A stretch of DNA of 25,992 nucleotides from a virus, in the IMG/VR virus record IMGVR_UViG_3300025736_000003. One strand, 5' to 3'. Shown piece after piece: positions 1 through 25,992 of this stretch. Position 1 is the stretch's first letter, and each line of letters starts with the position of its first letter. Under the pieces are notes generated by a model, which made no database searches, had not been told where the DNA came from, and was given only the letters and a program-made list of their open reading frames with translations. The position numbers and the translations under genes are program-made.

Positions 1-127
1 TGTGTATAACCCTATATCCTTCCTTCTCAGCATACTTTTTACAATATTCCTTCTGCTGTGCTATATTTTGTTGCTCGTCGTCTGTAGAGATTCTAGTGTA
101 TATTATTGCTTCCTTAACCATAAATTA
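1..127. repeat. Terminal overlap identical to 25866-25992 (circular-assembly signature); contains the first 121 nt of the recombinase gene
   Basis: Base-by-base comparison of the first and last 127 nt shows 100% identity. Minus-strand translation of 121..1 gives MVKEAIIYTRISTDDEQQ..., the same N-terminus as the CDS at 25489..25986. Confidence 0.9.
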
Positions 128-1682: not shown

Positions 1683-1975
1683 TTGACCTTGACCTTGACC
1701 ATGACCTTGACCATGACCCTGACCCTGACCCTGACCCTGACCCTGACCATGACCATGACCTTGACCCTGACCTTGACCCTGACCCTGACCATGACCCTGA
1801 CCCTGACCCTGACCCTGACCCTGACCCTGACCCTGACCATGACCCTGACCCTGACCCTGACCATGACCATGACCTTGACCCTGACCTTGACCCTGACCCT
1901 GACCATGACCCTGACCCTGACCCTGACCATGACCCTGACCATGACCTTGACCCTGACCTTGACCCTGACCATGAC
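1683..1975. repeat. Tandem hexanucleotide array (C/T/A)TGACC, about 49 units, with a higher-order duplication
   Basis: Direct reading shows a perfect 6-bp period with variation only at unit position 1. A block of about 65 bp recurs at roughly 1748 and 1863. All frames are open across it, which explains the four ORF-track entries here. Confidence 0.9.
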
Positions 1976-4426: not shown

Positions 4427-4481
4427 TTTAACACCTCTGTTTCCTGTGGAGAAGTGGATTGTGCGAACTTTTTTAGTAATT

Positions 4482-4578
4482 TAGAACAACTAGAACAACT
4501 AGAACAGGTGATGTCCACTCAATTCTACATATGGAAAGTAAGTGGGGTTTGCCTGTTCTTCTTGTTCTACCTGTTCTA
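4482..4578. promoter_or_regulatory. Inverted arrays of AGAACA(A/G) repeats (3 + 3 copies) around a 43-bp spacer: candidate origin or operator
   Basis: Three tandem tagaacaac/tagaacagg units at 4482-4508 and, on the opposite strand, cctgttct/tcttgttcta/cctgttcta at 4552-4578. The right arm overlaps the last codons of the primase-helicase gene. Confidence 0.45.
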
Positions 4579-6189
4579 TTTGATAATTTCACCCTTAAAT
4601 TTAATTCCAACCCATGCCCTTCCCTTCTTATTTATATCCCATGGAAGATATTTTAATTTCTGTTCAATCCCTAATTGTTTCATTTTACTACCAATTACTA
4701 CATCTGAAATTTCTCTAAACCTATTTTCTTTACACCATTCGTTTAACTTTTTAGAAAAATCATTTTTCCATACTACACCATCAGAGTCTTCTTCTGTAAA
4801 TTCTTTAAGGAATTTTTCTAAAGGATTACTATGATCCTCATATTTTTTCATTCTATCTTCAATTGTACCTTCATTAGTAAATTCTCTTTTCTCTAATAAA
4901 TCTTTTAATATTAAAGAACATTTAACAGTTAGTGCTTCATATTCCTCATCTGGTATCTCAGATAATATATCTTTCTTTTCTGAAAATTGGTTTGGAAAAT
5001 CTATAATCATCCATCTTCTATAAAATCCAATAGTTTTATCATTTGTGGCTGGAAGATTATTAGTAGCAATCATTATTTTAGCATAATTAATTTCTTCAAA
5101 AGGATCTTTATTTTTATACTCAAACCCTATTAAATCTCCACCTGATAATTTCTTTAAGATAGAAGTTTTATTCATTTCTGAAAAATTAGTTTCTCCCATT
5201 TGACAAACTAATTTTTTATGTAATCGGGTAACCTCAAATCTACTTTGTAATAAAGTATCTAATTCTGTTGAACAGCAATTACTGCCCCCAATAAATTTCC
5301 TGAGTAAATTTAAGAAACAACTTTTACCATTCATACCACCACCAATAAAACAAAAGATTCTATGGATAGGATAATCTGGAATTAAACAATATGCTAATAT
5401 TTCATATAAGGTTTGAACGTGATCCTTCCCAACCCATTCCTCAAATATTTTGTCCATTATGGGAGTTTCATAAAATCCATCTTCATTTAATTTCCATGGT
5501 ATTGGATTAGTAACAAATAGATGTGGTGTTGCCCTTGATTGCTCCCCTGTCTTAATATTCATTATAGTATTTTCAAATTGAACTGTATATTTTCCTATTG
5601 GGGCCGGAATATTTAATCTACTTACTTGTTTAAGAGCTTCAATCATCTCATTTTTTTCCTTAGAATTTATTGTGTTTATTGTTGCTTGTTTATCAACTGC
5701 ATTTAATATATCAGTTTCATCTACTCTTTCCCATTTTGTTTCTGGCCAATTCCATAACCACCAACTTCTAGAATTATCATATAAACAGGGTTGTATTTCA
5801 ATAATATGTTCTGCTAATTCTTTTTTATCGAACATATTCCCAAGTTTTTCTGTTAAATTTTCGACAGGATAATTTTTCTTTTCATTTTCTTCAATAGTTC
5901 TTTTTTGTTTTTTAAAATAATTTAATTGTTCTTTAAGAAGAGTAATTTTTCTACCAGTTTTTTTAGATAAAATTTTTAACGCATCATCTATTTCTAAAGG
6001 GGACAACCCTAAGATATTTTTTAACTCTTTTATTACTTCATCTGACGATGATATTTTTATTTTTTTATCATTTATTAATTCAATAAATCCGTTATCAATA
6101 TATTCCTGTTCATCCCCTCCTGGAAAACTCGCCTCTTTTATCTCTCCAGCTTTCCCACCAGCATAATTTTTTAATATTTTAATTTTCAT
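4576..6189 (-). CDS. D5/P4-family primase-helicase (SF3 helicase domain), 537 aa
   Basis: D5_N-like segment with SRSWWLWNWPETKW. Walker A FIGGGMNGKS (the GxGxNGKS form typical of P4-type primase C-terminal domains), motif C IMIATNNLP, and YRRWMIIDF as an arginine-finger region. Confidence 0.8.
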   Translation of the reverse strand: MKIKILKNYAGGKAGEIKEASFPGGDEQEYIDNGFIELINDKKIKISSSDEVIKELKNILGLSPLEIDDALKILSKKTGRKITLLKEQLNYFKKQKRTIEENEKKNYPVENLTEKLGNMFDKKELAEHIIEIQPCLYDNSRSWWLWNWPETKWERVDETDILNAVDKQATINTINSKEKNEMIEALKQVSRLNIPAPIGKYTVQFENTIMNIKTGEQSRATPHLFVTNPIPWKLNEDGFYETPIMDKIFEEWVGKDHVQTLYEILAYCLIPDYPIHRIFCFIGGGMNGKSCFLNLLRKFIGGSNCCSTELDTLLQSRFEVTRLHKKLVCQMGETNFSEMNKTSILKKLSGGDLIGFEYKNKDPFEEINYAKIMIATNNLPATNDKTIGFYRRWMIIDFPNQFSEKKDILSEIPDEEYEALTVKCSLILKDLLEKREFTNEGTIEDRMKKYEDHSNPLEKFLKEFTEEDSDGVVWKNDFSKKLNEWCKENRFREISDVVIGSKMKQLGIEQKLKYLPWDINKKGRAWVGIKFKGEIIK

Positions 6190-8277: not shown

Positions 8278-10089
8278 TTAATTTACCTCCCTAATATATT
8301 TATAAACCCAAACTCCGTTACAAATAGAATCATCCAATCCTAATCTTGAACTCCCACTCATATATCTTACAACACCTTTAGCAGTATTATTAAATATAAA
8401 GTTTTCCATTGTCCATTCAACTCCTTCGTTTTGACAAGCCGCCTCAAAATAAACCGTTTCTGCCTGATTTGTTTCACAATAATTTCCACTCCAATTCATT
8501 TCGCTATATTGAAAATTTGGAATGGCTGAAAAACAAGTCCCACCAGTATTATTCAAATAAACATTATTGAATCTTACAATATGATTTGGGTCTGCATAGT
8601 TTCTCCAAAATTGTTTTATTCCATAGCTATTTGTATTTAGCATTGTAACATTATTACCCTCGACAATAGTGTTTTCACTTCTAGGAAATATTGCTATTCC
8701 AGTCGTTCCAGTATTAATCCCATAAATTGTATTGTTAATAACTGAGGTATCTTTATTTGAATTAGTCGAGCCTGTCCCTTGAATCTGTATCCCACTTCGT
8801 CCATTATAAGAAATGTAGATAGTATTATTTATTATATCATTTCTATTTGAAATAAGGGCGGCTCCAAAAACTATTGGATTTCTGTTTCCTGTTGTGTTAA
8901 TCCAATTATCTCTTATAATATTATCATTGTGAGTTCCAGTATTAAAATGTATAATACCATCTTGAATTTTGTTATTTTTAACTATATTATTACTTGCCCC
9001 GTTGTAGATACTTATAGAGTTAGCAATTCCGAAAAAGTTATTTTTTTCTATCAGATTATTATTATTATTTGTATGAAAACTTATTCCATTTGAAATACCC
9101 GTCAAGGTGTTATTAATATAATTATTATAAGAACAGCTTGAATAACATTCTATATTATCAGTCCCCCCCGTGAAGGTTGTTACATTATTTCCAGTAATAT
9201 TTGTATGAATTACACCAACCATATAAATTCCGTTTTGGGTAGTTCCACCGTTGGCAGAAGTAACATTATTATTATTTATGTTTTCATAATCCCCTCTTAA
9301 ATAAACGGGATAATTATTGTTTCCAGTATTTCCAGCCTTAACATTACAATTTTGCAAAGTATTTCTATCAGAACCATACGCCATATAAACTCCATATCTT
9401 GAACTTGAATAAGTTGTTCCGTAAGTTATATCATATCCATCGCAATCAAGAATTATATTGTCTCCAGTAAAAGTCATACAAGTTCCTGTCGATGAAACAC
9501 TTACGTTCAATTTATAATTTTGGTTGCTTGTTGCGAAAGTAGAACAGGCTGTCACATTTGTATAAGCTAAATTCATTCCGTCTAAAGTTTGCTTAAATTT
9601 TAGAGTTAAAGTTTTCTTATCTTTGCTCAAATCCCAAGAGCAATTTATCAAACACTCTTTATCAAAATCGAAGATTTGTCTGAATTCATTCCATTCATCC
9701 TTAGGATTCTTTTTATAAGTATATGCGGATAGCGTCTTAAAATCAGGATTAATTTCTTCAAGCAAAATTATATCCGAATCACTTTTTAAAGTATAAATGA
9801 AATCTTTTAATGAATCACTTTTTGTTGTTGGTTTAATAATATATTTTCCTTTCTCTTCTATAAAATCTAAATCATAAGATTTTGAAGATAAAAAGGTATC
9901 TTCTTTAAGTTCTATGTTCGCACTATTCCAATCGGTATCAAAAACTATTTTATTGCTATCCTTACTAATTAATGTTATACTAGAAGATATATCTTCTCCA
10001 ATATTTGAATCTAAATCACTTCCAAAGATTAAAGGTAGAATACCAATTAACAATATTAGAATAGAAAAATATATAATTTGTTTTTTCAT
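8278..10089 (-). CDS. Secreted right-handed parallel beta-helix repeat protein (603 aa), receptor-binding/adhesin- or depolymerase-like
   Basis: Signal peptide MKKQIIYFSILILLIGILPLIFG. Many about 22-aa repeats of the form NNxI.G.N.....GI (NNIVKNNKI, NIIRDNWI, NDIINNTIYIS, SVINNTIYG, NTIVEGNNVT), typical of pectate-lyase-fold beta-helices. Dense NxS/T sequons. Confidence 0.65.
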   Translation of the reverse strand: MKKQIIYFSILILLIGILPLIFGSDLDSNIGEDISSSITLISKDSNKIVFDTDWNSANIELKEDTFLSSKSYDLDFIEEKGKYIIKPTTKSDSLKDFIYTLKSDSDIILLEEINPDFKTLSAYTYKKNPKDEWNEFRQIFDFDKECLINCSWDLSKDKKTLTLKFKQTLDGMNLAYTNVTACSTFATSNQNYKLNVSVSSTGTCMTFTGDNIILDCDGYDITYGTTYSSSRYGVYMAYGSDRNTLQNCNVKAGNTGNNNYPVYLRGDYENINNNNVTSANGGTTQNGIYMVGVIHTNITGNNVTTFTGGTDNIECYSSCSYNNYINNTLTGISNGISFHTNNNNNLIEKNNFFGIANSISIYNGASNNIVKNNKIQDGIIHFNTGTHNDNIIRDNWINTTGNRNPIVFGAALISNRNDIINNTIYISYNGRSGIQIQGTGSTNSNKDTSVINNTIYGINTGTTGIAIFPRSENTIVEGNNVTMLNTNSYGIKQFWRNYADPNHIVRFNNVYLNNTGGTCFSAIPNFQYSEMNWSGNYCETNQAETVYFEAACQNEGVEWTMENFIFNNTAKGVVRYMSGSSRLGLDDSICNGVWVYKYIREVN

Positions 10090-11619
10090 CTAACAGCCTC
10101 CATAAAATATTCCAGTATCATTATATTTAGTAGTTCCAATACAAGCAAATTCTTCTACATATACAGCTTCGGTCATATTAACATTAGCTCCAATTTCAAA
10201 AATCCCATCGCCTGTCTCTGGATATAATTTTAAGTTTGGTGCATTATTCTTTAAATCAAATTCCCAATCAATAGTAGTAGTGTCATCAACAATATCATAT
10301 AAGCTAAATAGCCCAGGTTGTATTAGAGAATTATAATGAGTGCCCGTTGTCCAATCTGTGAAATCTGTTGCGTCTGTAACAAATAATATTGGAGACCCTG
10401 CAATCGCATCCATAAATCCATAAAAATAATTCCCAGAAATTCCATATCCTTCTATATCCCAATCCCCAGTAGCAGTCGAGCTACCGTCTGATTTCCAATA
10501 ATTAGAACTTCCATTCCAATTCCCATTAAAATAATCTGCTGTTATATTTGCTGTAGTTGTTATATCATTATCTTTAAAATTAACATCACCATCAGCTTCA
10601 ATAACCATTCTTTCATTCGAATATCCATTTGTATAGAATGCTAAGTCTGTTGCTACTTCTGTCCCCATTGAAAATCTCCCGTCGTTATATCCATAATAAC
10701 TAAAAATAAAATCTGTTGGAGAATAAACATCATTATAAAATAATCCTGTCCAATAACTTGCATCTGTATTTTGGTGAACTTCAAATGGTGCATAATTTAC
10801 ACTTGTTGTTTCACTACCCATTAAAAAACTTCCAGCAGTATTTGTTACACTTAATCCTGTTGATGATACACTTCCAGTTATATTAGAGTTTCCACTTACT
10901 TCTAAATCTCCTCCTATGTCTGCGTCGTCACCGACAAACAAATCATCCCAAGATATAATATCACCAATATTAGTTTCTATGTTTCCTGCTATAGCATAAA
11001 TATCTCCACCAGCAGAAGTTATTGCCCCGTTGGCACTAATAATTCCACTCGAAGTTATATTATCGAAAATTGAATTACCAATTACTTCTAATGTTCCATA
11101 GAACTTACTCGTTTGTAAATTGCCAATAGTTCCAACAAAGAAATTATTTCCGTTTAAAAAATTAATATATGTATTTCCACCGTCAAGAATCAAATCTGCT
11201 AATCCATTTGTAAAAATAGCTTCTCCAAAAATTCCATGATATAGTGAGAAGTCTGTATCAATATTATTACTTATTGTTAAATTATTTGATGTAAATGCTC
11301 CACCATTAATAATATCATTCCCACCCATATCAATATCTCCGGCCATTGTGCATCCGGTTAAAGCACACCACAAAGCATTTCCAAAAGATGTCAAATATGT
11401 TTCGCTAATAGTTAAGATTCCTCCGACGTTGTTGTGCTGGGTGGAATCAACACCTGTTAGAGCACCTATATTTGTTATCCAATTATTTGATGCATTAACA
11501 AAAGCTGTATTATTATCAAAAGGTATAGGGGGTGAATTTAAATCTATACCAATTATACCATCAACACCAGCACTAGAAAAACCAATCATTAAGATTAGCA
11601 ATAAAACCGAGTATTTCAT
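10090..11619 (-). CDS. Secreted Gly/Asn/Thr/Asp-rich repeat protein (509 aa), fibre/adhesin-like
   Basis: Signal peptide MKYSVLLLILMIGFSSAG, followed by low-complexity Gly-rich repeats (GGDLEVSGNSNITGSVSSTG...). Confidence 0.55.
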   Translation of the reverse strand: MKYSVLLLILMIGFSSAGVDGIIGIDLNSPPIPFDNNTAFVNASNNWITNIGALTGVDSTQHNNVGGILTISETYLTSFGNALWCALTGCTMAGDIDMGGNDIINGGAFTSNNLTISNNIDTDFSLYHGIFGEAIFTNGLADLILDGGNTYINFLNGNNFFVGTIGNLQTSKFYGTLEVIGNSIFDNITSSGIISANGAITSAGGDIYAIAGNIETNIGDIISWDDLFVGDDADIGGDLEVSGNSNITGSVSSTGLSVTNTAGSFLMGSETTSVNYAPFEVHQNTDASYWTGLFYNDVYSPTDFIFSYYGYNDGRFSMGTEVATDLAFYTNGYSNERMVIEADGDVNFKDNDITTTANITADYFNGNWNGSSNYWKSDGSSTATGDWDIEGYGISGNYFYGFMDAIAGSPILFVTDATDFTDWTTGTHYNSLIQPGLFSLYDIVDDTTTIDWEFDLKNNAPNLKLYPETGDGIFEIGANVNMTEAVYVEEFACIGTTKYNDTGIFYGGC

Positions 11620-11942
11620 TACTCAAACCTTCCTCTACTCATAAAAAACCATATACCAGATAAGGTTGTAACACCAGTTACAATCAATAGGATAGGGAGT
11701 GTTATTAGCCCAGCTTTAGTAGTCATTACCAAGCTTAATAAAACACAGGATAATGATGCTAGTGTAGCCCATTGTGGCATATCTGCATAACCGGATCTCT
11801 TACTTTGCATTATAGATCCTCTAAGAAAAATTAACATCCATGTAAAAAATAAAATCATAATTGGCAAAGCAGGTATTATCGTCGCAGTTCCTATTAATAC
11901 TTCATCTGGAGTCGTCCCATTTGGAAATTCAAATGTTGCCAT
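11619..11942 (-). CDS. Small polytopic membrane protein (107 aa)
   Basis: Three hydrophobic helix-length segments in the translation. Confidence 0.5.
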   Translation of the reverse strand: MATFEFPNGTTPDEVLIGTATIIPALPIMILFFTWMLIFLRGSIMQSKRSGYADMPQWATLASLSCVLLSLVMTTKAGLITLPILLIVTGVTTLSGIWFFMSRGRFE

Positions 11943-11943
11943 A

Positions 11944-12375
11944 CTATTCGGGTGATCTCCCTAACCATGCTTTAATTGTGAAATATCCAATAATAAAAGT
12001 TATCATTGTTACAAATGTTATGGCAATAAAACTAAATTCCCTACCAAATATTATAAAGAACCCAGTATTAAATGAAGAGATAGCTAAACTCATCGCAGTT
12101 AATGGGCCTATTTTAAATTGTGCACCAGTTGATGAATGTTCGTCACCACTTTCAAGTGTCGATTTAAATAATATTTCTTGTGATGTTTCAGATTCTCCTG
12201 AAAGTTTTGTGATGTTGCTTTTTATGCCGGTTTCTAAATTAGCATATCTTGAATCCTGTGCTAAACTAATATCTGAATCGTTATCTATTGCAAATTGAGT
12301 CATAAATATTATTACAGAAACAATAAAAATACCTGTTAATGCTGCTCCAATAATCATTCTTGAATATCCAGCCAT
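11944..12375 (-). CDS. Membrane protein (143 aa)
   Basis: N- and C-terminal hydrophobic helices flanking an acidic middle region. Confidence 0.5.
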   Translation of the reverse strand: MAGYSRMIIGAALTGIFIVSVIIFMTQFAIDNDSDISLAQDSRYANLETGIKSNITKLSGESETSQEILFKSTLESGDEHSSTGAQFKIGPLTAMSLAISSFNTGFFIIFGREFSFIAITFVTMITFIIGYFTIKAWLGRSPE

Positions 12376-14888
12376 TATCTTTTACCACTCCCTTTAATTA
12401 TAACAACAACAACAGCTACGACAAACCATAATATTGTTGCCCCTGCCCCTACAATAGATGTTGAGTATGCTAAGTTTAATCCTATTAACAAAAATGCTCC
12501 AAGTATTAAAAATATACCCGTAATTAATGGATTATCACTTACACCCATACCGAACATTAATAATAATAATACAATAGATGAGAAGATTAAAACTCCTCCA
12601 TATTGATCCTTAGGATTATCTTTTAATAATATATAACCTTCCCTTCTTATATCTCCATTTAAAGCAATCGTCGCATATATTGTAGAGTTGCCAAATGATT
12701 CTGGTATAGTACATAATAGAGTTCCACCTGCAGCATTTAATAAATCAGAACATACAGAGGTATTACCAAAATTATCTATGAGTGTTACGTTCAACTGTAC
12801 AATATTACTAACACCACTAATTATCCCAAAAGTAGAACTTACAACCCTTGTATCTTTATCATAAGTTAAAGATGAGAAGAAATCTGATTCTGTAATTATA
12901 TCAAATAAATCTGTTCCTGTAATTAAAGCATTCAAATTAATTTCACATGAAGTTATAAGAGGATTTTGGCAATTAGCTATTACCTCAGTAAAGCTATCTA
13001 ATAGTTCACCATCTTTAATAAAAAACAAATTATATATAACATCGTTTGGAACTAAGTGTGCTATTGTAAAACCATTAGTACCACTCATAGGTATTTCTAT
13101 AGTTTTAAAAACACCTTCTTCAATATATTTTCTCTGGACTTGAACTATTAAATCAGAAACTGGTATAAAATCTTGCCCCTTATATGTTATTTTAAATTCC
13201 TGTCCTTCAGATTCTGCTAAGTTATATAATGTTATATTTTGTGATCTAGTAGAATTATCAAAAATAAAGTTTTGAACATTATAAAATTCCACAAATTTAT
13301 CTATTGCTGTATATTCAATTACTGCATCCATCCTTAAAGTAGAATTACCAACAGAATTATTCATACAAACTCTAGCAGGATTTATTTTTGAATATTCTTT
13401 TGAAAATTGTATTATTTCCTCAGAGTTATCAGGAAAAGAAAATCTCATATCAAGTTTTATAGAAGAATTTTCTGTTACTCCATCTATTTGTAATTGTGTT
13501 GTTTCATCTACAATGGTAAAATTAAAGATTTGATTAGTAAAAACTGAGCAATCATCAATACTAATTTCAAATATAGTTTGATTTTGTGTAGTAGAATTTT
13601 GTATAAAACCGCTTTCTAAAGAAACACTCCAATAGAATGGCACAACTTCCGTACCATTAACTTGTTGTATATTTTTATTTATTGTTGCGAACCATTCGTC
13701 GTCGTCATATTCCGTAAATGTTGTAGGGTAAGACGTTCCATTATAAACGAATAAAACATTAGTTAATCTCTCAAATGTTATAACTGATATATTTATATTA
13801 AAATTAGAAGTATCACCCTCTAATACATTAGGGGAAAACTCTTCGTTTAAAACACTAAATGGAACAACATTAAAAGTAAAATTATTTTGTGCAAACGTAC
13901 AATTATTGAATGAAGAGTTCTCATAACAAATTTCTGCATTCCAAATATAATTTCCCAAAACAAATTCGTCGATAAACAATGATTCGTTAAATGTTCTATT
14001 TGGAGAAAGAGATATTGTAGTTTGGTTATGTATAGAACTATCATTATTCCATATAAAGTAAGTTACATTTGTTACATTATAATCACCAATAACATCCCCA
14101 CTAACTGTAAAATTTGCACCTATATCTGATATTGTTGAATCATTTACAGGAGAAATTAATTTTATTAATCCACCACCTGAATATGGTAATGCATCACTTG
14201 AATTATAAAGTTCTATTATTTCATCAGGTGTTAGAATTTTATTAAAAATTCCAACCTCATCAATATCTCCGTTCCAAGCATTTGTATATCCAACATTATA
14301 TCCTATCCCAGTTTTCGTACCAACAGTACCCTGCCCTGTCATATTCTCTTTCCAAATAGTATCAATATACATTTGTGTATTAGTTCCATCCCATACTAAC
14401 GTAGCCATATGCCAAGCGTTATCAAATAATCCTAAAACACCTGAGGTATCCCAAGCTATCCCTTCTTGTAATAATCTTATATCTGAACTATAACTTGCAG
14501 ATGTAGCAATACAATTCCCCTTCCCTGTATCACCATTGATACAAAGTAATCTACCTTCCGATCCAGGCTGTGTTGTAGATTTAAACCAAACATTTGCAGA
14601 ATAATCTCCTGTCTGAACACCGCTTGTTCCATAAAGTGAATTACCAGAACCATCATAATTACGTCCATCTATTAATATCCCTGAGGAATTTGTTGTTCCA
14701 GAATTTGTTAAATTATTTGAAGAAACTATATCTGTTAAAACATTGTTATCTAATTTATAATAAGAAGTTATATTATCATTCCAATCAAAACCACTAACTT
14801 GTGTTGAAAACGTAAGGATGAAACATACTACCACTATCAAAAAGATTGATGAGGATGGCTTATACGAAGAGTTTTTTTCAGTTTTCAT
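12375..14888 (-). CDS. Large surface (spike/envelope-like) protein, 837 aa, with N-terminal signal peptide and C-terminal membrane anchor
   Basis: Signal-like N-terminus (SIFLIVVVCFILTFSTQVSG) and about 70 C-terminal hydrophobic residues ending in KGSGKR. Numerous NxS/T sequons. A possible concanavalin-A/LamG-like beta-sandwich near the N-terminus is my inference only. Confidence 0.6.
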   Translation of the reverse strand: MKTEKNSSYKPSSSIFLIVVVCFILTFSTQVSGFDWNDNITSYYKLDNNVLTDIVSSNNLTNSGTTNSSGILIDGRNYDGSGNSLYGTSGVQTGDYSANVWFKSTTQPGSEGRLLCINGDTGKGNCIATSASYSSDIRLLQEGIAWDTSGVLGLFDNAWHMATLVWDGTNTQMYIDTIWKENMTGQGTVGTKTGIGYNVGYTNAWNGDIDEVGIFNKILTPDEIIELYNSSDALPYSGGGLIKLISPVNDSTISDIGANFTVSGDVIGDYNVTNVTYFIWNNDSSIHNQTTISLSPNRTFNESLFIDEFVLGNYIWNAEICYENSSFNNCTFAQNNFTFNVVPFSVLNEEFSPNVLEGDTSNFNINISVITFERLTNVLFVYNGTSYPTTFTEYDDDEWFATINKNIQQVNGTEVVPFYWSVSLESGFIQNSTTQNQTIFEISIDDCSVFTNQIFNFTIVDETTQLQIDGVTENSSIKLDMRFSFPDNSEEIIQFSKEYSKINPARVCMNNSVGNSTLRMDAVIEYTAIDKFVEFYNVQNFIFDNSTRSQNITLYNLAESEGQEFKITYKGQDFIPVSDLIVQVQRKYIEEGVFKTIEIPMSGTNGFTIAHLVPNDVIYNLFFIKDGELLDSFTEVIANCQNPLITSCEINLNALITGTDLFDIITESDFFSSLTYDKDTRVVSSTFGIISGVSNIVQLNVTLIDNFGNTSVCSDLLNAAGGTLLCTIPESFGNSTIYATIALNGDIRREGYILLKDNPKDQYGGVLIFSSIVLLLLMFGMGVSDNPLITGIFLILGAFLLIGLNLAYSTSIVGAGATILWFVVAVVVVIIKGSGKR

Positions 14889-15427
14889 ACATTAAACCTC
14901 CCTTCAGGGCTTCCGGTAAAAAATATTATACCAGCTATAAATGCAATTATTGTCATTATAACAGGGCTATAAATAATTAAATAAGATACAAGTGAAGCAT
15001 CCCTGAGGTTTATACCCAACTCATCTTGCCCAACATAAAACTCTTCATAGAATTGGCTAACCGCTATGCACGTTATTATTAATAATAATACTGAGAATAC
15101 AAATAAAGCTATAACCCAACCATTATGATTATCTCTCATCACAAAAGATAGCGATAGTAATCCAACAATACCAACAATATAAATCAAACCCATAATCAAA
15201 CCAATATTATTTATTATAGAACCAATAGGGGTTAATACTGTTTCTGTATATTCGCTTACATTTATTCCAGGTGCAACTTCTCCTATATCATTAAACGCAG
15301 GGAATATTTCATCAGTTGTGGTTTTAATAACACCCCATCCAATAGTTGCCCCAGCCACAAGTAATACTAGGAATATTAATCCACCAATCAATAATGCTAT
15401 AGCCCATATTTGTCCTTTGTTATTCAT
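14885..15427 (-). CDS. Polytopic membrane protein (180 aa, about 4 TM)
   Basis: Four hydrophobic helix-length stretches; ATGA-coupled to neighbours. Confidence 0.55.
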   Translation of the reverse strand: MNNKGQIWAIALLIGGLIFLVLLVAGATIGWGVIKTTTDEIFPAFNDIGEVAPGINVSEYTETVLTPIGSIINNIGLIMGLIYIVGIVGLLSLSFVMRDNHNGWVIALFVFSVLLLIITCIAVSQFYEEFYVGQDELGINLRDASLVSYLIIYSPVIMTIIAFIAGIIFFTGSPEGRFNV

Positions 15428-15630
15428 TTGTGTTTCTCCGGTAAGTTAGTTAATTCTTCTAGCAACTTTCTATAACTTGGACATCTAGTTGCCAAGTTTG
15501 ATATTTTAGGCATTGTCATTTCCCTGGGCGAACACCTACTCAGCTTCTTTTCCATTCTTGTAGCACCAGCTTTAAATAAGTCTGTAAACAGTGTTTCATC
15601 CATTCTAGCAGTCCTACTCTTTGATTTCAT
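15424..15630 (-). CDS. Small basic protein (68 aa)
   Basis: ORF coupled by 4-nt overlaps on both sides; Arg/Lys-rich. Confidence 0.35.
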   Translation of the reverse strand: MKSKSRTARMDETLFTDLFKAGATRMEKKLSRCSPREMTMPKISNLATRCPSYRKLLEELTNLPEKHK

Positions 15631-16349
15631 TTGAACTCAACACCCCTTTCAATTAACCCAAGCATCTCTTTGCTTAAAACAATCCTTTGAATCATTGCAA
15701 TAATACAGAGAGGGATAATTATAAGATTAGATAACATCATAATAGTAAATATTCCAAATAAGAAACTACCTAACAAACCTGTATCTAAATATGCTATTGC
15801 AATATTAGATGCTATAAAAACTATTGATGTTAATAGAATCCAGACAGACCCCTTCACAACTGGCCTGATATATGCTAATTTTGAAACTTCTAATACAAAT
15901 CCTTGATCGTCACGAGCATCAGTTGGTAAAACGTTTAGAAACATAAATAGTAATCCCATAATAAATATTAAGAAAATAATTAAACCCAAATAAAGAATCG
16001 CAGTTTGGGGCGTAAGAGTATGACCATTATAAGTAACTGGAACGGTATTACATCCGGTATCTTTTTCTACACTATTTCCACAACTATAACAATAAGTAAG
16101 GGTATCTTTTTCTGTTAAATTGCCACCTTCAATTAAGAATGAATAATGAGTCCCATCTTGAGTAGCCTCTATGTTTGAAAATAATAATTCTCCACCATAG
16201 GTAACCCTTGTAAAATTACAACCTGTACAATTATTACATTCTTGATAAATTTCATAATCATCTCCTATTTGTGTAGGTGTTAATTCGACAGCCCCTACAA
16301 AAGTAAAAGCAAACATTAAAAATAATAATAATATTACTTTTTTCCCCAT
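15627..16349 (-). CDS. Membrane protein with Cys-rich ectodomain (about 240 aa)
   Basis: I placed the start at the ATG at 16349 (MGKKVILLLFLMFAFTFVGA, signal-like) because AGGAGG lies 9 nt upstream. A CNNCTGCN...CYSCG...GCN cluster is followed by several TM helices. Confidence 0.5.
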   Translation of the reverse strand: MGKKVILLLFLMFAFTFVGAVELTPTQIGDDYEIYQECNNCTGCNFTRVTYGGELLFSNIEATQDGTHYSFLIEGGNLTEKDTLTYCYSCGNSVEKDTGCNTVPVTYNGHTLTPQTAILYLGLIIFLIFIMGLLFMFLNVLPTDARDDQGFVLEVSKLAYIRPVVKGSVWILLTSIVFIASNIAIAYLDTGLLGSFLFGIFTIMMLSNLIIIPLCIIAMIQRIVLSKEMLGLIERGVEFK

Positions 16350-17131
16350 GGCCAAATACCTCCTGTTTTTTGTTGTGTTTCCATAACTGGATTTCCCCTT
16401 GATTCGGATATGTGTGTATGTTGTCTTAATGTTCTCCTTTCCTCTCCCTTCCATGCCCTTAAATAAGTTGCATGAATAGCATCTTGGATAACCCTAACAG
16501 TTATCATATATCTTTTTAATTTACTTTTTATTATTTGTTGTTTTATTTTTTCTAATTCTTCCTCTACTCTATCTTCAATCTTTGCGAATTTTTCATTAAT
16601 AATTTCATCTCTATTATATTCAATACCAGCAACTTCTTTAGCATAGGCGGATATTTCAGTTTGCCTTTCAATTCTATCCTTAAGTACATCAATACATTGT
16701 TTAACAGTTGGAGAAATAAATACTTTATCATATTCCATAAATATAGTATCAATCAAATCATTAGTAAAATCCCACATCTTCTTTCTTATTGTAGCATCGT
16801 CAAAATTAGATAATAATAAATTTTTGTTCAAATACCAGCAGATAGTATTTCTTATTAAATGTATTCCATACTCAGTAAAAATAACCATATCATCATTAGT
16901 AGGAGCTTTCCATATTAACTTCCCATCTACCCCAGGTTCTAATGAATATCCTTTTAATAAATAATCGATCCTTGATATTTCATCACTTAAATCTAGTTGC
17001 TCTCTAGTTATTGATTTCTCTTCTGGTTGCATAAATGTTTCTTGCTGTGCTCTAACTAAGGCTTGTTGTCCAGCTTCTATCTTTGCTGCATCCAATTCTT
17101 GTTGATATTTATCTATTAAATCTTGATCCAT
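16334..17131 (-). CDS. Hypothetical soluble protein (265 aa)
   Basis: ORF in the operon; acidic and coiled-coil-like at the N-terminus; no motif recognised. Confidence 0.45.
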   Translation of the reverse strand: MDQDLIDKYQQELDAAKIEAGQQALVRAQQETFMQPEEKSITREQLDLSDEISRIDYLLKGYSLEPGVDGKLIWKAPTNDDMVIFTEYGIHLIRNTICWYLNKNLLLSNFDDATIRKKMWDFTNDLIDTIFMEYDKVFISPTVKQCIDVLKDRIERQTEISAYAKEVAGIEYNRDEIINEKFAKIEDRVEEELEKIKQQIIKSKLKRYMITVRVIQDAIHATYLRAWKGEERRTLRQHTHISESRGNPVMETQQKTGGIWPWGKK

Positions 17132-17133
17132 TG

Positions 17134-20100
17134 TTACTTCTTTTTCTTTGTCGATTTAGTTTTCTTCTTCGGTGCTTTTCTTTTTGCTGCTTGGATTTCT
17201 ATAGTTTCTGTTTTCTTACTCAATCTCTTACTTCTTCGTTCAATAAATAATTTTCCTAAAGGTGTGTCTTTCTCTCTAAACCCTTTTGGTGCTTTTGGAG
17301 TTTTGCCAGGTGAACTTAATCTAAATGTTGCAGCTAAAGTTTTTGAGGTTACTCTTTTACCAAATTCGAATGCTTGTCGCTGTGTTCTAAAACTTCCAAC
17401 ATTAAAGAACTCTCCACCTCTACGAATTTGAACACCGAAGCCAACTCTTGGTGTTTTTGTGCTTGGTGTTTTTGGAATAATTGGAGGGAATATTATGTTT
17501 ATCTTTCCTATTATTTTGGGTGGTCTTGGTTGTGGTGGTTGAGGAAATCCACCAAATCCAATTATATTAGGTTGTGCAAATTGTTGCCTTTGGAGTTGTC
17601 GCTGTAATTGTTTCTGATTTAATTTTTGATCTTGTCTCTGAATAACTCTACTTATTACTTTCTCTACAGGTTGTTGAAATTGTTTAGACACTAAACGAGA
17701 ATCAGCCCTAGAACTTATCTTCTTTAATTGAGCAACCTTTACACCAAGTATAGAATTTATATCAAGATTAAATGATTGTGATAACTTAGGCTGAATTATT
17801 TGTATAGGAACATCTGTAACTGATACTTCTTGTTTTCCATTTAATAAAGAAGCTATACCTAACCCACCCAACCCTAAACTATCACGAGTACCGCTAATTT
17901 CTAATCCAGGAATAAATGGAGCAGCCCCACCAGATACAGAAGGTACTTTTAATATTTCTTCTGTTGGTTGTACAAATGTAGTTCTTGGTAAATTCAATTC
18001 CTCTCCAAATGCAAACTTAGATGGAACAGGGATTTGTTCTTGAATTTGTTTTGTTGGTTTTGTCTTACTAAAGAAGTCTGTTATTTGTCCCTTCCTAGCT
18101 GCTATCTTTGATTCCTGTGAACTTGTCAAAGATTTAACAACGTCATCAAACTGTTCCCTTGCTAAAGCCCTATCAATAACATCTACTTTTAACTTCCTAG
18201 CTTTTACAACTTTAGAACCAGCTTTTTGTAATGCCTTTAATTCTTTAGATGCAGGATTAATAAATAGGGTTGTAGTTCTCTGACCTGAAAATGCAGTTAT
18301 ATCTCTTTGTATGTTTGGCGTTATTACTTTTGTTAATAGTTTTTGTTTACCCACTTGTCCGAAAAGTGTTTGGTCGAATGTTTTATCAACTCCAAATTCT
18401 ATTTCTTGTGCAATCCTTCTTCTTATTTGAATATTACCCTTAGATCCAACTCTCTTTATTAATCCCTTTCTTTCACTAACTTGAATAATATCCAAGAAAG
18501 ATTTCTCTTTTTGTATGGTTTGTTTTATTCCTTTAGATATATCTCTACCAACTAATGTTGTTGATTCAAATTCTCCAGTAACAAGTTTTGATCTAAGAGA
18601 TACAGGCTTATCTGATAATATTAAATCTCCAACGTCGTCTGTAAGTTTACTACTCTTCTTAACCTTATCACCACTCTTAACAATTAATTCATTAAATGTT
18701 ACACCTGGTTGTCCGAACTGTTTATCAATCTTTAATTTATCTACTTTTGATTTTAAAAATTTTAATTCTGGCAAATCTCCTTTATTCAAACTTTGCTCAA
18801 AAATAGATTTCCCCTTCTTAAATAATTTAACAGTTCCTTTACCACCTTTAGTTACTTCAGTAATTTTAGTTATATCGCCAAACTTAATTGTTTCTTTTAG
18901 AACTCCATCACCTGCGACCTCCGCAAACCCTTCAAACTTTTGTAGTTTCTTACCAATCTTTCTCAACTCAATAACCTTACCGGTTTGCCTAGCTTCAGGT
19001 ATAAATTGTGTTTCTAATATTCTACCTTTTGTTTTAGAACTAACTATGGATTTAGATAGATCATCCACTTTGGAAATCTCTAATCTTGGTTTAGTTATTT
19101 TTAATTTAGAAGTTTCTTTAGCAATCCTTGTTTCTAATATTAATGCTTTTCTTTCTGGGATAGATACAAATTCTTGTAACTTCTTTACCCTACCTGCCTT
19201 AATAGCCTTAACTATACCTCTAGAACCAACCCCTATAGCAAGTCCAACCTCTAATGGATTTTCAACTGCAAAATCAAAGAACGATTCTGGTCCACCAAAA
19301 GCACCCTTACCAACTTGTGCCTCTAATCCTTTAGCAGCAACCTCACCAACGAATGCTCCAGGCAAAGTAAAACCTAATAGTTCAGTACCAACACGAACAG
19401 CCTTACCACCAAACTCTGCCCTTTTTTCAAACCCAGCTTTCTTTTCTATCCCAGGTATATCTGATTTTAATATATCAGTAAATGATTGTTCAACCTCTCC
19501 TAAGAAAATCTCTTTACCAAATCCAATCAAACCTTCACCTTGAAATTTAGATATTGGAACATCTCTAATCTGACCTGGTAATCCTAACCTAACAGTTGGT
19601 CCACCGCCTAACTGGAATGTAGTAGTGTCTCCTTCTTTAACTTCTGTAACAGTTCCTCCACCTGCTTTAAACTGTGACAACTTTAATGAGAAATCTTCCT
19701 GACTTAATCCTTCTTGTAATACTGCTTCTGTTAATGAACTAAACTCTTTTAATTGTCTATCAATTATTCTCTTAGCTTCTGCTATTTGTCCTATTGGAGT
19801 ATCTCCTAGTGATGGTAATGTTTCTCTTAATGGTACGACAACCTTTTCTCTAAAAGCACCAACACCTGACTCAACACCACTAATGATTGGCTGAACACCA
19901 AACTCACTTATTGGAGTTATAAACTCTTTCTCAACTGCCCTAAATACTTTTGATTCACTAAGTGGTATTACAACTTCTTTTTCAAATGTCTTTGCAATAT
20001 CTTTAGATGCCAACCCAACTTCACCAGCGACAATCTTTCCACCAAAACTTAAGGGAGATAAATTTTGTAACTTACTAACTTCAACATCTCTAATCTGTCC

Positions 20101-20787: not shown

Positions 20788-21137
20788 CAATAAACTCTAA
20801 CTAAAAATGTTTTCCCATAATCTTTCGTAACCCACGTTCTGGATTCTATTAAAGAATAAATGTTATCACCATCTTTTAATTTAATTCCTGTATCAATATC
20901 ATTTTTTTGTGGTTGTCTTGAAAAAGTATTTGGTGCTAATCCTAACTTAATCAAACCCACATAATTATTATTATCACCAATATCAATCTTTATATTATCA
21001 AAATCAACAACATCTTTATTATGCTCAACAGCACCATAGATTCCTACAAAAGAACCAATTAATAATACAGATAAGATAGCCGCCACCGAGTATAAAACTT
21101 TAGGGTTGTTTAATAATTGTTTTACTTCTTTATCCAT
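20787..21137 (-). CDS. Small membrane-anchored protein (about 116 aa)
   Basis: I placed the start at the ATG at 21137 (MDKEVKQLLNNPKVLYSVAAILSVLLIGSFVGIYGA, with an N-terminal TM or signal anchor). The track start at 21158 is a GTG lying inside the upstream repeats. Confidence 0.45.
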   Translation of the reverse strand: MDKEVKQLLNNPKVLYSVAAILSVLLIGSFVGIYGAVEHNKDVVDFDNIKIDIGDNNNYVGLIKLGLAPNTFSRQPQKNDIDTGIKLKDGDNIYSLIESRTWVTKDYGKTFLVRVY

Positions 21138-21139
21138 TT

Positions 21140-21175
21140 GCGTTACAGCGTTACGCACTTGCGTTACAGCGTTAC
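21140..21175. promoter_or_regulatory. Four GCGTTAC heptamers (two 15-bp direct repeats) immediately upstream of the ATG at 21137: candidate operator
   Basis: gcgttacagcgttac at 21140-21154 and again at 21161-21175, lying between a TATA-like AT box and the start codon. Confidence 0.45.
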
Positions 21176-25488: not shown

Positions 25489-25986
25489 CTAAATCTTCTT
25501 ATTTCTTCCAACCGCACCTTTCTTCCGGCCCTTATATTTCCCTTCAGCTTTTGCCCTAGCTATACCAACTGCTCTCTTTATATTAAGATTATCAATATAA
25601 AAAGCATTCATAGCCATTTTAATTCTAAAAGTGAACTTCCCCATAGGATTAACTAAATCAACCATCTCAGATAAAGATTTAATAATAATATTATTTTTAA
25701 TAACAAAACGTTCAAACCAAACGCTATCATAAAAATCTCTGCAAATCCTATCAACATCCTGAACAATTAAATGTACTGTTGGGTTCTCCTCTAAAAACTT
25801 TAACATCCTTTTACCGCCGCTTCGTTCACAAACATTTATCTTACCACTAATCTTATCTCCAATGGTGTGTATAACCCTATATCCTTCCTTCTCAGCATAC
25901 TTTTTACAATATTCCTTCTGCTGTGCTATATTTTGTTGCTCGTCGTCTGTAGAGATTCTAGTGTATATTATTGCTTCCTTAACCAT
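25489..25986 (-). CDS. Small serine recombinase (resolvase/invertase catalytic domain), 165 aa, no obvious C-terminal HTH
   Basis: N-terminal YTRISTDDEQ motif with Arg10/Ser12 arranged as in resolvase/invertase active sites, and a DRICRD motif around residue 80. The protein stops at ...KGRKKGAVGRNKKI, where the HTH domain of typical resolvases would start. Confidence 0.75.
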   Translation of the reverse strand: MVKEAIIYTRISTDDEQQNIAQQKEYCKKYAEKEGYRVIHTIGDKISGKINVCERSGGKRMLKFLEENPTVHLIVQDVDRICRDFYDSVWFERFVIKNNIIIKSLSEMVDLVNPMGKFTFRIKMAMNAFYIDNLNIKRAVGIARAKAEGKYKGRKKGAVGRNKKI

Positions 25987-25992
25987 AAATTA
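25866..25992. repeat. Terminal overlap, second copy (identical to 1-127)
   Basis: Identical 127-mer at both window ends, implying a unit length of 25,865 bp. Confidence 0.9.

What the first reader, a model, noticed from the sequence alone, without database searches (positions are those of the whole stretch)
4482..4578. Inverted arrays of AGAACA(A/G) iterons next to the primase-helicase gene
Three tandem units face three opposite-strand units across a 43-bp spacer, overlapping the 3' end of the SF3 helicase gene and lying upstream of small basic zinc-finger genes. This is a classic layout for a replication origin, or for an operator bound cooperatively by a dimeric protein.
Basis: partly seen in the sequence, partly recalled or inferred. 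Interest (0 to 1): 0.6.

Follow-up and report, generated by a model that had tools for sequence, protein, structure and literature searches.

The report
Iteron replication origin beside its helicase
The inverted AGAACA repeats are real and are most likely the replication origin of a 25.9-kb circular, probably archaeal, mobile element: docking sites read by the DNA-binding tail of the helicase encoded right next to them, with a probable host-initiator site alongside.

Summary
Three 9-bp units (4482-4508) face three inverted units (4552-4578) across 43 bp. The array scores 48/54; 100 shuffles of the window never exceeded 42. It lies just past the stop codon of a D5/P4-family SF3 helicase gene.

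In 94 distinct related loci, 89 carry the same 3+3 layout, and 78 of those sit within -60..+30 nt of the helicase stop. The repeat sequence differs between loci (56 consensus 9-mers in 80 arrays), while a core inside the spacer (CACTYA...TRAGTG) is conserved.

Repeat identity tracks only the helicase's C-terminal ~80 residues (partial Mantel r 0.53, 0/2000 permutations; r -0.006 for the ATPase core). That region models as an RFX/phage-P4 origin-binding winged helix. Mismatches show no G:U bias and units are interchangeable, so the hairpin is a by-product of the symmetry.

The best reading is the origin of a self-loading helicase-initiator, as in staphylococcal SaPI islands, phage P4 and plasmid pRN1. 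No binding or replication was tested. It differs in its 9-bp units, in having a conserved rather than AT-rich centre, and in an archaeal ORB-like (Orc1/Cdc6) box 31 nt away, which recurs next to the array in 23 of 80 loci. The zinc-finger operator idea is not supported. It is a new variant of a known kind.

The parts
4552..4578 (-). Helicase-proximal iteron arm. On the gene (minus) strand it reads TAGAACAGG TAGAACAAG AAGAACAGG. The first TAG is the helicase stop codon.
   Evidence: An equivalent arm is present in 89 of 94 related loci.
4482..4508 (-). Distal iteron arm, three inverted 9-bp units. On the minus strand it reads CCTGTTCTA GTTGTTCTA GTTGTTCTA.
4509..4551 (-). 43-bp centre holding a family-wide conserved core. 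It has inverted half-sites CACTYA / TRAGTG (plus strand 4515-4521 and 4539-4545) around an asymmetric ACATAKGGAAA centre. It is not AT-rich.
   Evidence: Consensus of 84 arrays. Half-sites are conserved as sequence, with no compensatory pairing. Spacers are 62% AT against a 69% locus mean.
4576..6189 (-). 537-aa D5/P4-family SF3 helicase-initiator gene. Domains are D5_N, DUF5906 ATPase and a C-terminal winged helix.
   Evidence: Pfam DUF5906 E 2e-17. TIGR01613 scores 140 bits against a cutoff of 108.7. The only PDB sequence hit is SaPI5 PriRep5, 7OLA. Foldseek hits are ASFV C962R, SaPI5 PriRep5 and poxvirus D5/E5.
4579..4872 (-). Coding region for helicase residues 440-537, the winged-helix C-terminal domain inferred to read the iterons. 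Key positions are W474, S479, V497, V498, L512, K522, G523 and R524.
4431..4453 (-). ORB-like box (archaeal Orc1/Cdc6 origin recognition box). It reads TTCTCCACAGGAAACAGAGGTGT, lies 31 nt beyond the array, and its G-string doubles as the ribosome-binding site of the 49-aa ORF.
   Evidence: It matches 18 of 22 positions of a published ORB, GTTCCACTGGAAACAG-AGGGGT (PMC4153887 Table 2). It is the only hit in the window with one mismatch or fewer. In the relatives, 26 of 35 ORB-like hits lie 1-100 nt beyond the array.
4456..4474 (-). Conserved motif AAAAAGTTCGCACAATCC between the array and the ORB-like box. Its role is unknown.
   Evidence: Found in 15 of 80 loci, mostly 10-15 nt after the last iteron.

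Best explanation
The array is the replication origin (ori) of a 25.9-kb circular mobile element, whose host is probably a DPANN archaeon. It works with the helicase encoded immediately upstream.

Shown here:
- The layout is 3 iterons, a conserved core, then 3 inverted iterons.
- It is linked to this helicase family in many otherwise unrelated gene contexts.
- Iteron sequence co-varies, position by position, with the recognition-helix start and the beta-hairpin wing of the helicase's C-terminal winged-helix domain.
- That domain has an RFX/P4 origin-binding fold.

Inferred, by analogy with SaPI Rep, P4 alpha, and the papilloma E1 and SV40 large T origins:
- Each 9-bp iteron docks one winged-helix domain.
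- The two opposed trios nucleate two helicase rings facing each other over the conserved core.
- The core is melted, and the rings then unwind outwards without a separate loader.

More tentatively, the adjacent ORB-like box lets the host initiator Orc1/Cdc6 bind beside the array. This would parallel the DnaA boxes next to the iterons of bacterial plasmids.
For: - The array is non-random and unique in the window.
- Of 94 distinct relatives with helicases 44-84% identical, 89 have a 3+3 inverted 9-mer array scoring 43 or more. Of those, 78 lie within -60..+30 nt of the helicase stop.
- Only the helicase is a constant neighbour. Homologues of orf49, orf140 and orf380 occur in 2, 10 and 2 of 80 loci.
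- There are 56 different iteron consensus 9-mers in 80 arrays, with the profile W-T-[AGT]-[AG]-[AT]-C-A-R-G.
- Iteron distance correlates with helicase residues about 455-535 (Spearman up to 0.50). The correlation is 0.26 or less upstream of residue 436 and 0.02-0.15 for the variable N-terminus.
- Partial Mantel r(iteron, CTD | ATPase core) is 0.53, reached by 0 of 2000 permutations. The reverse partial is -0.006.
- All 25 columns with the highest mutual information lie in residues 452-525. Residue 522 pairs with iteron base 3 (1.02 bit), residue 512 with base 4 (1.02 bit), and R524 variants N/P/Y with bases 6-7.
- Equally variable residues 466, 470, 532 and 533 carry essentially no signal, even though codons 532-533 are the ones nearest the array. 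This argues against plain physical linkage.
- Arrays displaced about 2 kb upstream (L077, L084) still match the KRWNAW wing seen with the adjacent TGTCAAC array of L099. Arrays at +300 (L051, L055, L098) match the wing type of their iterons.
- The closest solved homologue is SaPI5 PriRep5. SaPI Reps read iterons with a C-terminal winged helix, and their ori is 6-12 iterons immediately downstream of rep, with opposed sets (PMC9371898).
- pRN1 also needs a ~100-nt element just 3' of its primase-helicase gene (PMC4234260).
Against: - No experiment was done: binding, melting and initiation are all inferred.
- GC skew in the window follows gene orientation and shows no switch at 4.5 kb.
- There is no AT-rich unwinding element in or beside the array, unlike SaPI origins.
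- The C-terminal codons lie next to the iterons, so co-inheritance by recombination could inflate the correlation. The controls reduce this concern but do not abolish it.
- No primase was identified in the window.
- The central ATPase part of the AlphaFold model is poor, with pLDDT below 50 for residues 317-395.
Confidence: 0.78

Rival explanations
1. The array is an operator or autoregulatory site. The helicase's winged helix, or another dimeric regulator, binds it to control read-through from the helicase gene into the downstream small genes, rather than to start replication.
For: The array sits between the helicase stop and the next gene, with only about 55 nt to spare and no obvious separate promoter. 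Initiators often autoregulate, and the co-variation data show binding specificity, not function.
Against: The downstream genes differ from locus to locus, and some arrays lie upstream of, or 300 nt away from, the helicase gene. So no constant regulated target exists. Six sites in two opposed trios around a conserved core is the layout of SF3 origins. This role could coexist with an origin role.
Confidence: 0.1
2. The functional unit is a nucleic-acid hairpin: an RNA terminator or sRNA, or a single-stranded or cruciform DNA origin like the pRN1 stem-loop. On this reading the tandem repeats are incidental.
For: The region folds well. As DNA it gives -20.5 kcal/mol (z -5.5) and as RNA -51.6 kcal/mol (z -5.4). 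pRN1 needs an intact stem-loop in the same position.
Against: - Across 84 arrays, in-register mismatches are 95 G:T against 95 A:C, so there is no wobble bias.
- In-register arm identity (7.07 of 9) barely exceeds out-of-register identity (6.89) and equals within-arm identity (7.07).
- The inner half-sites show 68 G:T against 60 A:C, and the Y position assorts independently between the halves.
- Every relative keeps tandem periodicity, which a stem does not need.
- No Rfam family matches, and no intrinsic terminator is predicted.
Confidence: 0.05
3. The array is a binding site for the neighbouring small zinc-finger proteins.
For: Cys-rich small ORFs follow the array in the window (orf140, orf58) and in several relatives.
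Against: Homologues of orf140 occur in 10 of 80 array-bearing loci and homologues of orf58 in 8 of 80. The first downstream ORF in the window (orf49) has no cysteines. Iteron identity is already explained by the helicase C-terminal domain.
Confidence: 0.03
4. The array is a partition (centromere-like) site or a copy-control 'handcuffing' site, not the initiation site.
For: Repeat arrays bound by winged-helix or ribbon-helix-helix proteins serve these roles in plasmids. The element is a circle that may be maintained as a plasmid.
Against: No ParA/ParB-like gene was detected among the ORFs scanned. Copy control by the same iterons would be an addition to an origin role, not an alternative.
Confidence: 0.04

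Closest known systems
SaPI / PICI replicon of Staphylococcus aureus (pri-rep-ori; Rep1, PriRep5 self-loading helicases)
   Same: - The SF3 helicase-initiator has a C-terminal winged helix that reads short iterons.
- The iterons lie immediately downstream of the rep ORF, in two sets pointing in opposite directions.
- Specificities diverge between elements.
- PriRep5 (7OLA) is the only PDB sequence match, E 2e-12.
   Different: - Units are 9 bp here, in a strict 3+3 arrangement, against penta- or hexanucleotides in 6-12 copies.
- The centre is a conserved ~30-bp sequence with its own inverted half-sites and is not AT-rich.
- No recognisable pri gene lies upstream.
- The host is probably archaeal.
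- An ORB-like box lies next to the array.
Phage P4 alpha protein and its ori/crr type I iterons
   Different: There is no primase domain in this copy and no second cis site (crr) in the window. The geometry here is strictly symmetrical around a conserved core.
Sulfolobus plasmid pRN1 origin (stem-loop 3' of orf904)
   Same: An approximately 100-nt palindromic element lies directly after a primase-helicase gene that has a winged helix. It is essential and relocatable in pRN1. Its sequence is poorly conserved among relatives while its form is kept.
   Different: In pRN1 the evidence points to stem integrity, and no protein binding was shown. Here pairing is not what is conserved, and the arms are tandem protein-site arrays.
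SV40/polyomavirus site II (GAGGC pentamers) and papillomavirus E1 binding sites
   Same: Inverted short repeats dock the origin-binding domains of an SF3 helicase so that two rings assemble head to head. From my own knowledge, E1 passes through a double-trimer stage, which echoes the 3+3 layout.
   Different: Those origin-binding domains are unrelated (not winged helices) and lie N-terminal to the helicase. Those origins also have AT tracts. The resemblance is analogy only.
Archaeal chromosomal origins (ORB boxes bound by Orc1/Cdc6) and bacterial iteron plasmids with DnaA boxes
   Same: The 4431-4453 motif fits the ORB consensus. 'Element-specific iterons plus a host-initiator box' is the logic of bacterial iteron plasmids (review PMC4980987, listed).
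   Different: There is a single ORB in the window, no orc1/cdc6 gene on the element, and no inverted ORB pair around an AT-rich stretch. Bacterial plasmid Reps are not helicases, and their iterons are direct repeats of 17-22 bp.

Membership tests
SaPI-type self-loading Rep origin | The adjacent gene encodes an AAA+ (SF3) helicase homologous to SaPI Rep/PriRep | tested here: met
   phmmer against PDB finds only 7OLA/7OM0 (SaPI5 PriRep5), E 2e-12 over residues 198-410. Foldseek places it among the top hits.
SaPI-type self-loading Rep origin | A C-terminal winged-helix domain reads the iterons | tested here: inconclusive
SaPI-type self-loading Rep origin | Iterons lie immediately downstream of the rep ORF, with at least 2 on each side pointing in opposite directions | tested here: met
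   The window has 3+3, starting at the stop codon. Of 89 related arrays, 78 lie within -60..+30 nt of the stop.
SaPI-type self-loading Rep origin | AT-rich region at the centre of the ori | tested here: not met
   Spacers are 62% AT and their central 16 nt 66%, against a locus mean of 69%. The centre is a conserved sequence instead.
SaPI-type self-loading Rep origin | Primase gene (pri) upstream of, or fused to, rep | tested here: inconclusive
   The upstream 380-aa ORF has no Pfam, PHROG, NCBIfam or PDB match and no similarity to the N-terminus of fused relatives. Some 770-aa relatives carry a sub-threshold Prim-Pol match, 20.4 bits against a cutoff of 22.8.
SaPI-type self-loading Rep origin | Rep binds and melts its cognate ori and drives ori-dependent replication | not testable with these tools
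   This needs EMSA or footprinting and a replication assay.
P4-family primase-helicase origin | Protein belongs to the P4-family primase C-terminal (helicase) domain family | tested here: met
   TIGR01613 scores 140.3 bits against a curated cutoff of 108.7. Pfam gives DUF5906, with D5_N sub-threshold.
P4-family primase-helicase origin | Bipartite cis elements (ori plus a distant crr with the same iterons) | tested here: not met
   There is only one array in the 25.9-kb circle. The next best score is 40, which is background. The other AGAACAR sites are scattered singles.
pRN1-type stem-loop origin | The conserved feature is the base-paired stem, not the sequence | tested here: not met
   There is no wobble bias (95 against 95). 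In-register identity roughly equals out-of-register identity, and the inner half-sites assort independently.
Archaeal ORB / Orc1-Cdc6 origin | Sequence matches the ORB consensus (TTCCA-N2/3-GGAAA plus a G-string) | tested here: met
   TCTCCACAGGAAACAGAGGTGT matches GTTCCACTGGAAACAG-AGGGGT at 18 of 22 positions. In the relatives, 26 of 35 family-wide hits lie in the 100 nt beyond the array.
Archaeal ORB / Orc1-Cdc6 origin | Inverted ORB pair flanking an AT-rich unwinding element, next to an orc1/cdc6 gene | tested here: not met
   The window has a single ORB-like box. No Orc1/Cdc6-like protein was found among the ORFs scanned. A few relatives have two boxes.
Rfam RNA families | Match to a curated structured-RNA model | tested here: not met
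   No hit reaches a gathering score anywhere in the window. Only a sub-threshold generic hairpin hit was found (mir-26, 20 bits against 57).

The most novel reading that the evidence does not exclude
The origin may be composite. An element-specific iteron array for a self-loading viral/plasmid SF3 helicase would be coupled to an ORB box that recruits the host's Orc1/Cdc6. This would be the archaeal counterpart of 'iterons plus DnaA boxes' in bacterial plasmids.

It could give the element two replication modes: one driven by host MCM and one driven by its own helicase. Alternatively it could use Orc1-induced bending to open a centre that is not AT-rich.

The conserved core (CCCCACTYA ... GGGAAAC TRAGTGGGG) loosely resembles ORB elements and might itself be a host-factor site. 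The family would also provide a natural wing-to-base recognition code, with 56 or more specificities, for RFX/P4-type winged helices.
Probability: 0.35. Interest if true: 0.78.

Novelty: new variant of a known kind. Interest (0 to 1): 0.62.

Why it matters
- Origins of mobile elements of DPANN archaea (Woesearchaeota, Pacearchaeota) appear to be uncharacterised, and there is no genetic system for these organisms. A compact module of about 1.8 kb (helicase gene plus 97-bp array) that defines its own origin is a candidate replicon for building vectors.
- The family is large. The protein search gave 1889 hits and the metagenome scan 457 loci.
- It carries dozens of naturally diverged iteron/wing pairs. 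This makes the specificity code of a winged-helix origin-binding domain directly testable and offers sets of mutually orthogonal replicons.
- The ORB-like box beside the array supports an archaeal host for contigs that have been binned into bacterial MAGs.
- That box also raises the testable idea that a self-loading viral helicase origin co-operates with the cellular initiator.

Tried and rejected
- **GC skew.** The cumulative skew simply follows gene orientation, with a switch only at the divergent region around 21.0-23.5 kb. It says nothing about 4.5 kb.
- **Known phages.** A blastn search (word size 11) of 3.6 kb around the array against 50,697 phage records gave no match.
- **PHROG and Pfam.** Most neighbouring ORFs have no family.
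- **Bacterial promoter and terminator scan.** This was uninformative: one weak promoter-like site and no terminator.
- **RNA reading.** No Rfam family matched, and there is no wobble bias or compensatory pairing. The reading was rejected.
- **N-terminal ~110 residues as specificity module.** This region is variable or absent among relatives, but its correlation with iteron identity is only 0.02-0.15. The idea was rejected.
- **Upstream 380-aa ORF as the primase.** It has no family or PDB match, no similarity to the fused N-termini of relatives, and homologues in only 2 of 80 loci. The question is unresolved.
- **AT-rich unwinding element.** None was found in or next to the array.
- **Integration next to tRNA genes as a host link.** No tRNA was found in the window or in 21 of 22 loci scanned.
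- **Literature.** Searches for a prior description of this origin type in DPANN or archaeal elements found none. The library is limited to open-access papers.
- **First repeat-scan script.** It timed out and was rewritten in vectorised form.

Full report
**1. The observation**

Plus strand 4482-4508 reads TAGAACAAC TAGAACAAC TAGAACAGG. Plus strand 4552-4578 reads CCTGTTCTT CTTGTTCTA CCTGTTCTA. The period is 9 and the spacer is 43 nt. Six of the window's 15 AGAACAR sites are packed into these 97 bp.

I wrote a score for '3 + 3 inverted 9-mers separated by 30-60 nt', summing the column-majority counts over the six units (maximum 54). The array scores 48. The next best site in the window scores 40. 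The best site in each of 100 dinucleotide-preserving shuffles of the whole window averaged 39.4 (sd 0.94, maximum 42). The feature is real, unique in the window and far beyond chance.

**2. Context**

The window ends in a 127-bp direct terminal repeat, so it is a complete circular genome of 25,865 bp. It was also found as identical copies in JGI and ENA metagenomes and in IMG/VR.

Genes around the array are on the minus strand. The 537-aa ORF at 4576-6189 ends with the TAG that is the first triplet of the proximal iteron. This ORF has:
- Pfam DUF5906 (E 2e-17) and a sub-threshold D5_N match.
- A pass on NCBIfam TIGR01613, 'phage/plasmid primase, P4 family' (140 bits, cutoff 108.7).
- A single sequence match in the PDB, the SaPI5 primase-helicase PriRep5 (7OLA/7OM0, E 2e-12).
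- An AlphaFold model (mean pLDDT 73) whose Foldseek matches are ASFV C962R, SaPI5 PriRep5 and poxvirus D5/E5.

No primase domain is detectable in this copy. Downstream come a 49-aa ORF without cysteines, then the Cys-rich 140-aa and 58-aa ORFs. Most other ORFs on the circle have no PHROG or Pfam family.

**3. Comparative evidence**

The helicase family is very large: 1889 proteins at E <= 1e-10 and 457 metagenomic loci. I collected 122 loci from IMG/VR, GTDB genomes and JGI metagenomes.

For each of 94 distinct loci I scanned +-3 kb around the helicase stop with the same score.
- In 89 loci the best hit scored 43 or more.
- In 78 of those it lay within -60..+30 nt of the stop codon.
- In seven it lay 31-400 nt downstream.
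- In four it lay more than 60 nt before the stop: one overlapping the gene's 3' end (-72 nt), and three 1.8-2.8 kb before the stop, that is, upstream of the helicase gene itself.

The layout is constant: three 9-bp units, a spacer of 32-45 nt in the scan's phase, then three inverted units. The repeat sequence is not constant. There are 56 different consensus 9-mers in 80 arrays, for example TAGAACAGG, ATAAACAAG, ATGATAGGG, TGTCAACCC, TTAGTAGGG and ATTACAGGT. They follow the family profile W-T-[AGT]-[AG]-[AT]-C-A-R-G.

The centre, by contrast, is conserved across the family..tcCACTyA-TTc-ACATAkGGAAAcTrAGTGgg...

When the array starts before the stop codon, the helicase simply acquires a tripeptide-repeat tail (DEQDEQ, NQLNQLNQ, DDRDDR). 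This shows that selection acts on the DNA.

The neighbouring genes are not conserved with the array. Homologues of orf49, orf140, orf58 and orf380 occur in 2, 10, 8 and 2 of 80 loci. Helicase plus array is therefore a self-contained, portable module.

**4. Protein sites, not a hairpin**

The 97 nt fold well as DNA or RNA (z about -5.5), but any inverted repeat would. Across 84 distinct arrays:
- In-register mismatches are 95 G:T and 95 A:C, so there is no wobble bias on the transcribed strand.
- In-register arm-to-arm unit identity (7.07 of 9) barely exceeds out-of-register identity (6.89) and equals within-arm identity (7.07).

The units are therefore interchangeable copies of one site. They are not partners kept complementary to each other.

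The inner half-sites behave the same way. They show 68 G:T against 60 A:C, and the Y of CACTYA assorts independently in the two halves. They are conserved sequence motifs, not a stem.

No Rfam family matches and no intrinsic terminator is predicted.

**5. Which protein reads the iterons**

I aligned the 80 helicases and compared protein distance, in 25-residue windows, with iteron distance.
- The correlation is 0.26 or less everywhere upstream of residue 436.
- For the highly variable N-terminus it is 0.02-0.15.
- It rises to 0.40-0.50 only for residues about 455-535.

Partial Mantel tests gave r(iteron, C-terminal domain | ATPase core) = 0.53, reached by 0 of 2000 permutations. The reverse, r(iteron, core | C-terminal domain), was -0.006.

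All 25 columns with the highest excess mutual information lie in residues 452-525. Residue 522 pairs with iteron base 3 (1.02 bit), residue 512 with base 4 (1.02 bit), residues 497/498 with base 4, and residue 524 with bases 6-7.

The pattern is visible by eye:

| Wing motif | Iteron |
|---|---|
| KGGRAW | ATAAACARG |
| KKQxRAW | ATAATCARG |
| KKCRAW | TAGAACAAG |
| KRYRAW | ATGAACARG |
| GKGGQxRxW | YTAGACAGG |
| GGQLNVW | TTAGTAGGG |
| KRYPAW | ATGATAGGG |
| KRWNAW | TGTCAAC |

Two controls address the worry that adjacent DNA is merely co-inherited.
- Equally variable residues 466, 470, 532 and 533 carry essentially no signal, and 527 carries little. Yet codons 527-533 are the ones nearest the array.
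- L077 and L084 have arrays about 2 kb away, upstream of the gene, and still share the KRWNAW wing with L099, whose TGTCAAC array is adjacent. Arrays about 300 nt downstream (L051, L055, L098) likewise match the wing type of their iterons.

The co-varying residues map to the start of the second helix and to the hairpin wing. From my own knowledge, RFX1 is the classic winged helix that reads the major groove with its wing, so this placement fits.

**6. Mechanism**

Shown: six sites in two opposed trios around a conserved core, and specificity that tracks the helicase's winged helix.

Known from relatives (PMC9371898):
- SaPI Reps are initiator-helicases that need no loader.
- They bind iterons with a C-terminal winged helix.
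- Their ori is 6-12 iterons immediately downstream of rep, split into sets pointing in opposite directions.
- They are thought to load one hexamer on each side.

pRN1 likewise needs a ~100-nt element directly after its primase-helicase gene, and that element still works when moved (PMC4234260).

Inferred for this locus: each iteron docks one winged-helix domain; each trio nucleates a ring; the rings face each other across the core, which is opened; and the helicases then move apart. From my own knowledge, the papillomavirus E1 double-trimer to double-hexamer pathway is a mechanistic precedent for a 3+3 start.

What recognises the conserved core is unknown. Candidates are a conserved part of the helicase and a host factor.

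**7. Differences from the known cases**

- The units are 9 bp, against 5-6 bp in SaPIs.
- The number is fixed at 3+3.
- The centre is not AT-rich. Spacers are 62% AT and arms 62-63%, against a locus mean of 69%, and there is no flanking AT peak. It is a conserved sequence instead.
- No pri gene is recognisable. Some 770-aa relatives have a weak Prim-Pol N-terminus.

**8. An ORB-like box next to the array**

Thirty-one nt beyond the array the gene strand reads TTCTCCACAGGAAACAGAGGTGT (plus-strand coordinates 4431-4453). Published archaeal origin recognition boxes include GTTCCACTGGAAACAG-AGGGGT, and the archaeal consensus is CTTCCAGTGGAAACGAAAGGGGT (PMC4153887 Table 2). The window motif matches the first at 18 of 22 positions. 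It is the only hit in the window with one mismatch or fewer.

I searched about 500 kb of related loci on both strands for TCCANNGGAAA (one substitution or fewer) followed by a G-string. This gave 35 hits. Of these, 26 hits, in 23 loci, lie in the 100 nt just beyond the array, which is about 1.6% of the sequence searched.

The hits occur in both orientations and before unrelated genes. They are therefore not simply a shared ribosome-binding context, although in the window the G-string doubles as the Shine-Dalgarno sequence of orf49.

Two things follow.
- It supports an archaeal host. This agrees with the GTDB hits: 11 of 15 are archaeal MAGs, and 9 of those are DPANN (Woesearchaeota, Pacearchaeota, Aenigmatarchaeota). 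Contigs binned into Patescibacteria MAGs (L022, L025) carry the box too.
- It suggests that host Orc1/Cdc6 binds beside the element's own origin, in the way DnaA boxes sit beside the iterons of bacterial plasmids. This is inference only. The element encodes no detectable Orc1/Cdc6, and the window has a single box.

A further motif, AAAAAGTTCGCACAATCC (4456-4474), recurs 10-15 nt after the array in 15 of 80 loci. It is unexplained.

**9. Verdict**

The zinc-finger footprint idea is not.

The element belongs functionally with the SaPI, P4 and pRN1 type of origin for self-loading SF3 helicases. It fails the 'AT-rich centre' feature of SaPI origins and the 'conserved stem' feature of pRN1. It also adds a conserved core and an ORB-like box. 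I therefore file it as a new variant of a known kind rather than a plain member.

I found no description of it in the searchable literature.

Confidence that the array is the helicase's cognate binding site is about 0.85. Confidence that it is the replication origin is about 0.78. Confidence that the ORB-like box is functional is about 0.35-0.4.

Noticed in passing
window 1-127 and 25866-25992: A 127-bp perfect direct terminal repeat. The contig is therefore a complete circular genome of 25,865 bp. The serine recombinase gene (25489-25986, minus strand) begins inside the repeat.
   Followed up: partly
window 4431-4453 (minus strand): An ORB-like box (archaeal Orc1/Cdc6 origin recognition box), TTCTCCACAGGAAACAGAGGTGT, lies 31 nt beyond the array. 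Similar boxes sit within 100 nt of the array in 23 of 80 related loci, in either orientation.
   Followed up: yes
window 4456-4474 (minus strand): The conserved motif AAAAAGTTCGCACAATCC lies between the array and the ORB-like box. It is present in 15 of 80 loci, mostly 10-15 nt after the last iteron. Its function is unknown; it could be a promoter element, a primase site or a host-factor site.
   Followed up: partly
window 1684-1975: About 49 tandem copies of the hexamer TGACCC. On the minus strand they encode a 111-aa protein made almost entirely of (Gly/Trp/Arg)-Ser dipeptides. The gene calls at this position differ in length among the otherwise identical contigs L001-L003 (67, 75 and 113 aa), which suggests copy-number variation.
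   Followed up: partly
window 21130-21175: Four direct copies of GCGTTAC (a 21-bp unit repeated 2.2 times) form a GC-rich island. It sits at the edge of the only divergent intergenic region, where gene orientation and GC skew flip, next to a 47-aa ORF. It may be an operator or switch region.
   Followed up: no
L060, L077, L084 (arrays 1.8-2.8 kb before the helicase stop); L051, L055, L098 (about +300 nt): In a few relatives the whole iteron-core-iteron module sits upstream of the helicase gene or a few hundred nt downstream. The iterons still match the wing type of the helicase. The module is portable.
   Followed up: partly
proteins P0068, P0096, P0103; loci with array offsets of -20 to -52: Where the array begins before the stop codon, the helicase ORF reads into the iterons. 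This gives tripeptide-repeat tails such as DEQDEQ, NQLNQLNQ and DDRDDR.
   Followed up: partly
L040 5302-6179: A 57-kb viral contig carrying a related helicase and array has a cluster of six tRNA genes (Val, Leu x2, Gly, Pro, Gln) about 1 kb downstream.
   Followed up: no
window 8278-20790 (minus strand): A run of large ORFs: 603 aa with a weak beta-helix match, 509 aa, 837 aa with a Laminin_G_3/concanavalin-like domain, and 1218 aa. None has a PHROG match and no capsid or terminase is recognisable, so whether the circle is a virus or a plasmid is open.
   Followed up: no
helicase residues 1-45 (window 6055-6189, minus strand): A small N-terminal beta-rich module (MKIKILK...GDEQEYIDNGFIE) is present in only a subset of relatives. 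It does not co-vary with the iterons, and its role is unknown.
   Followed up: partly
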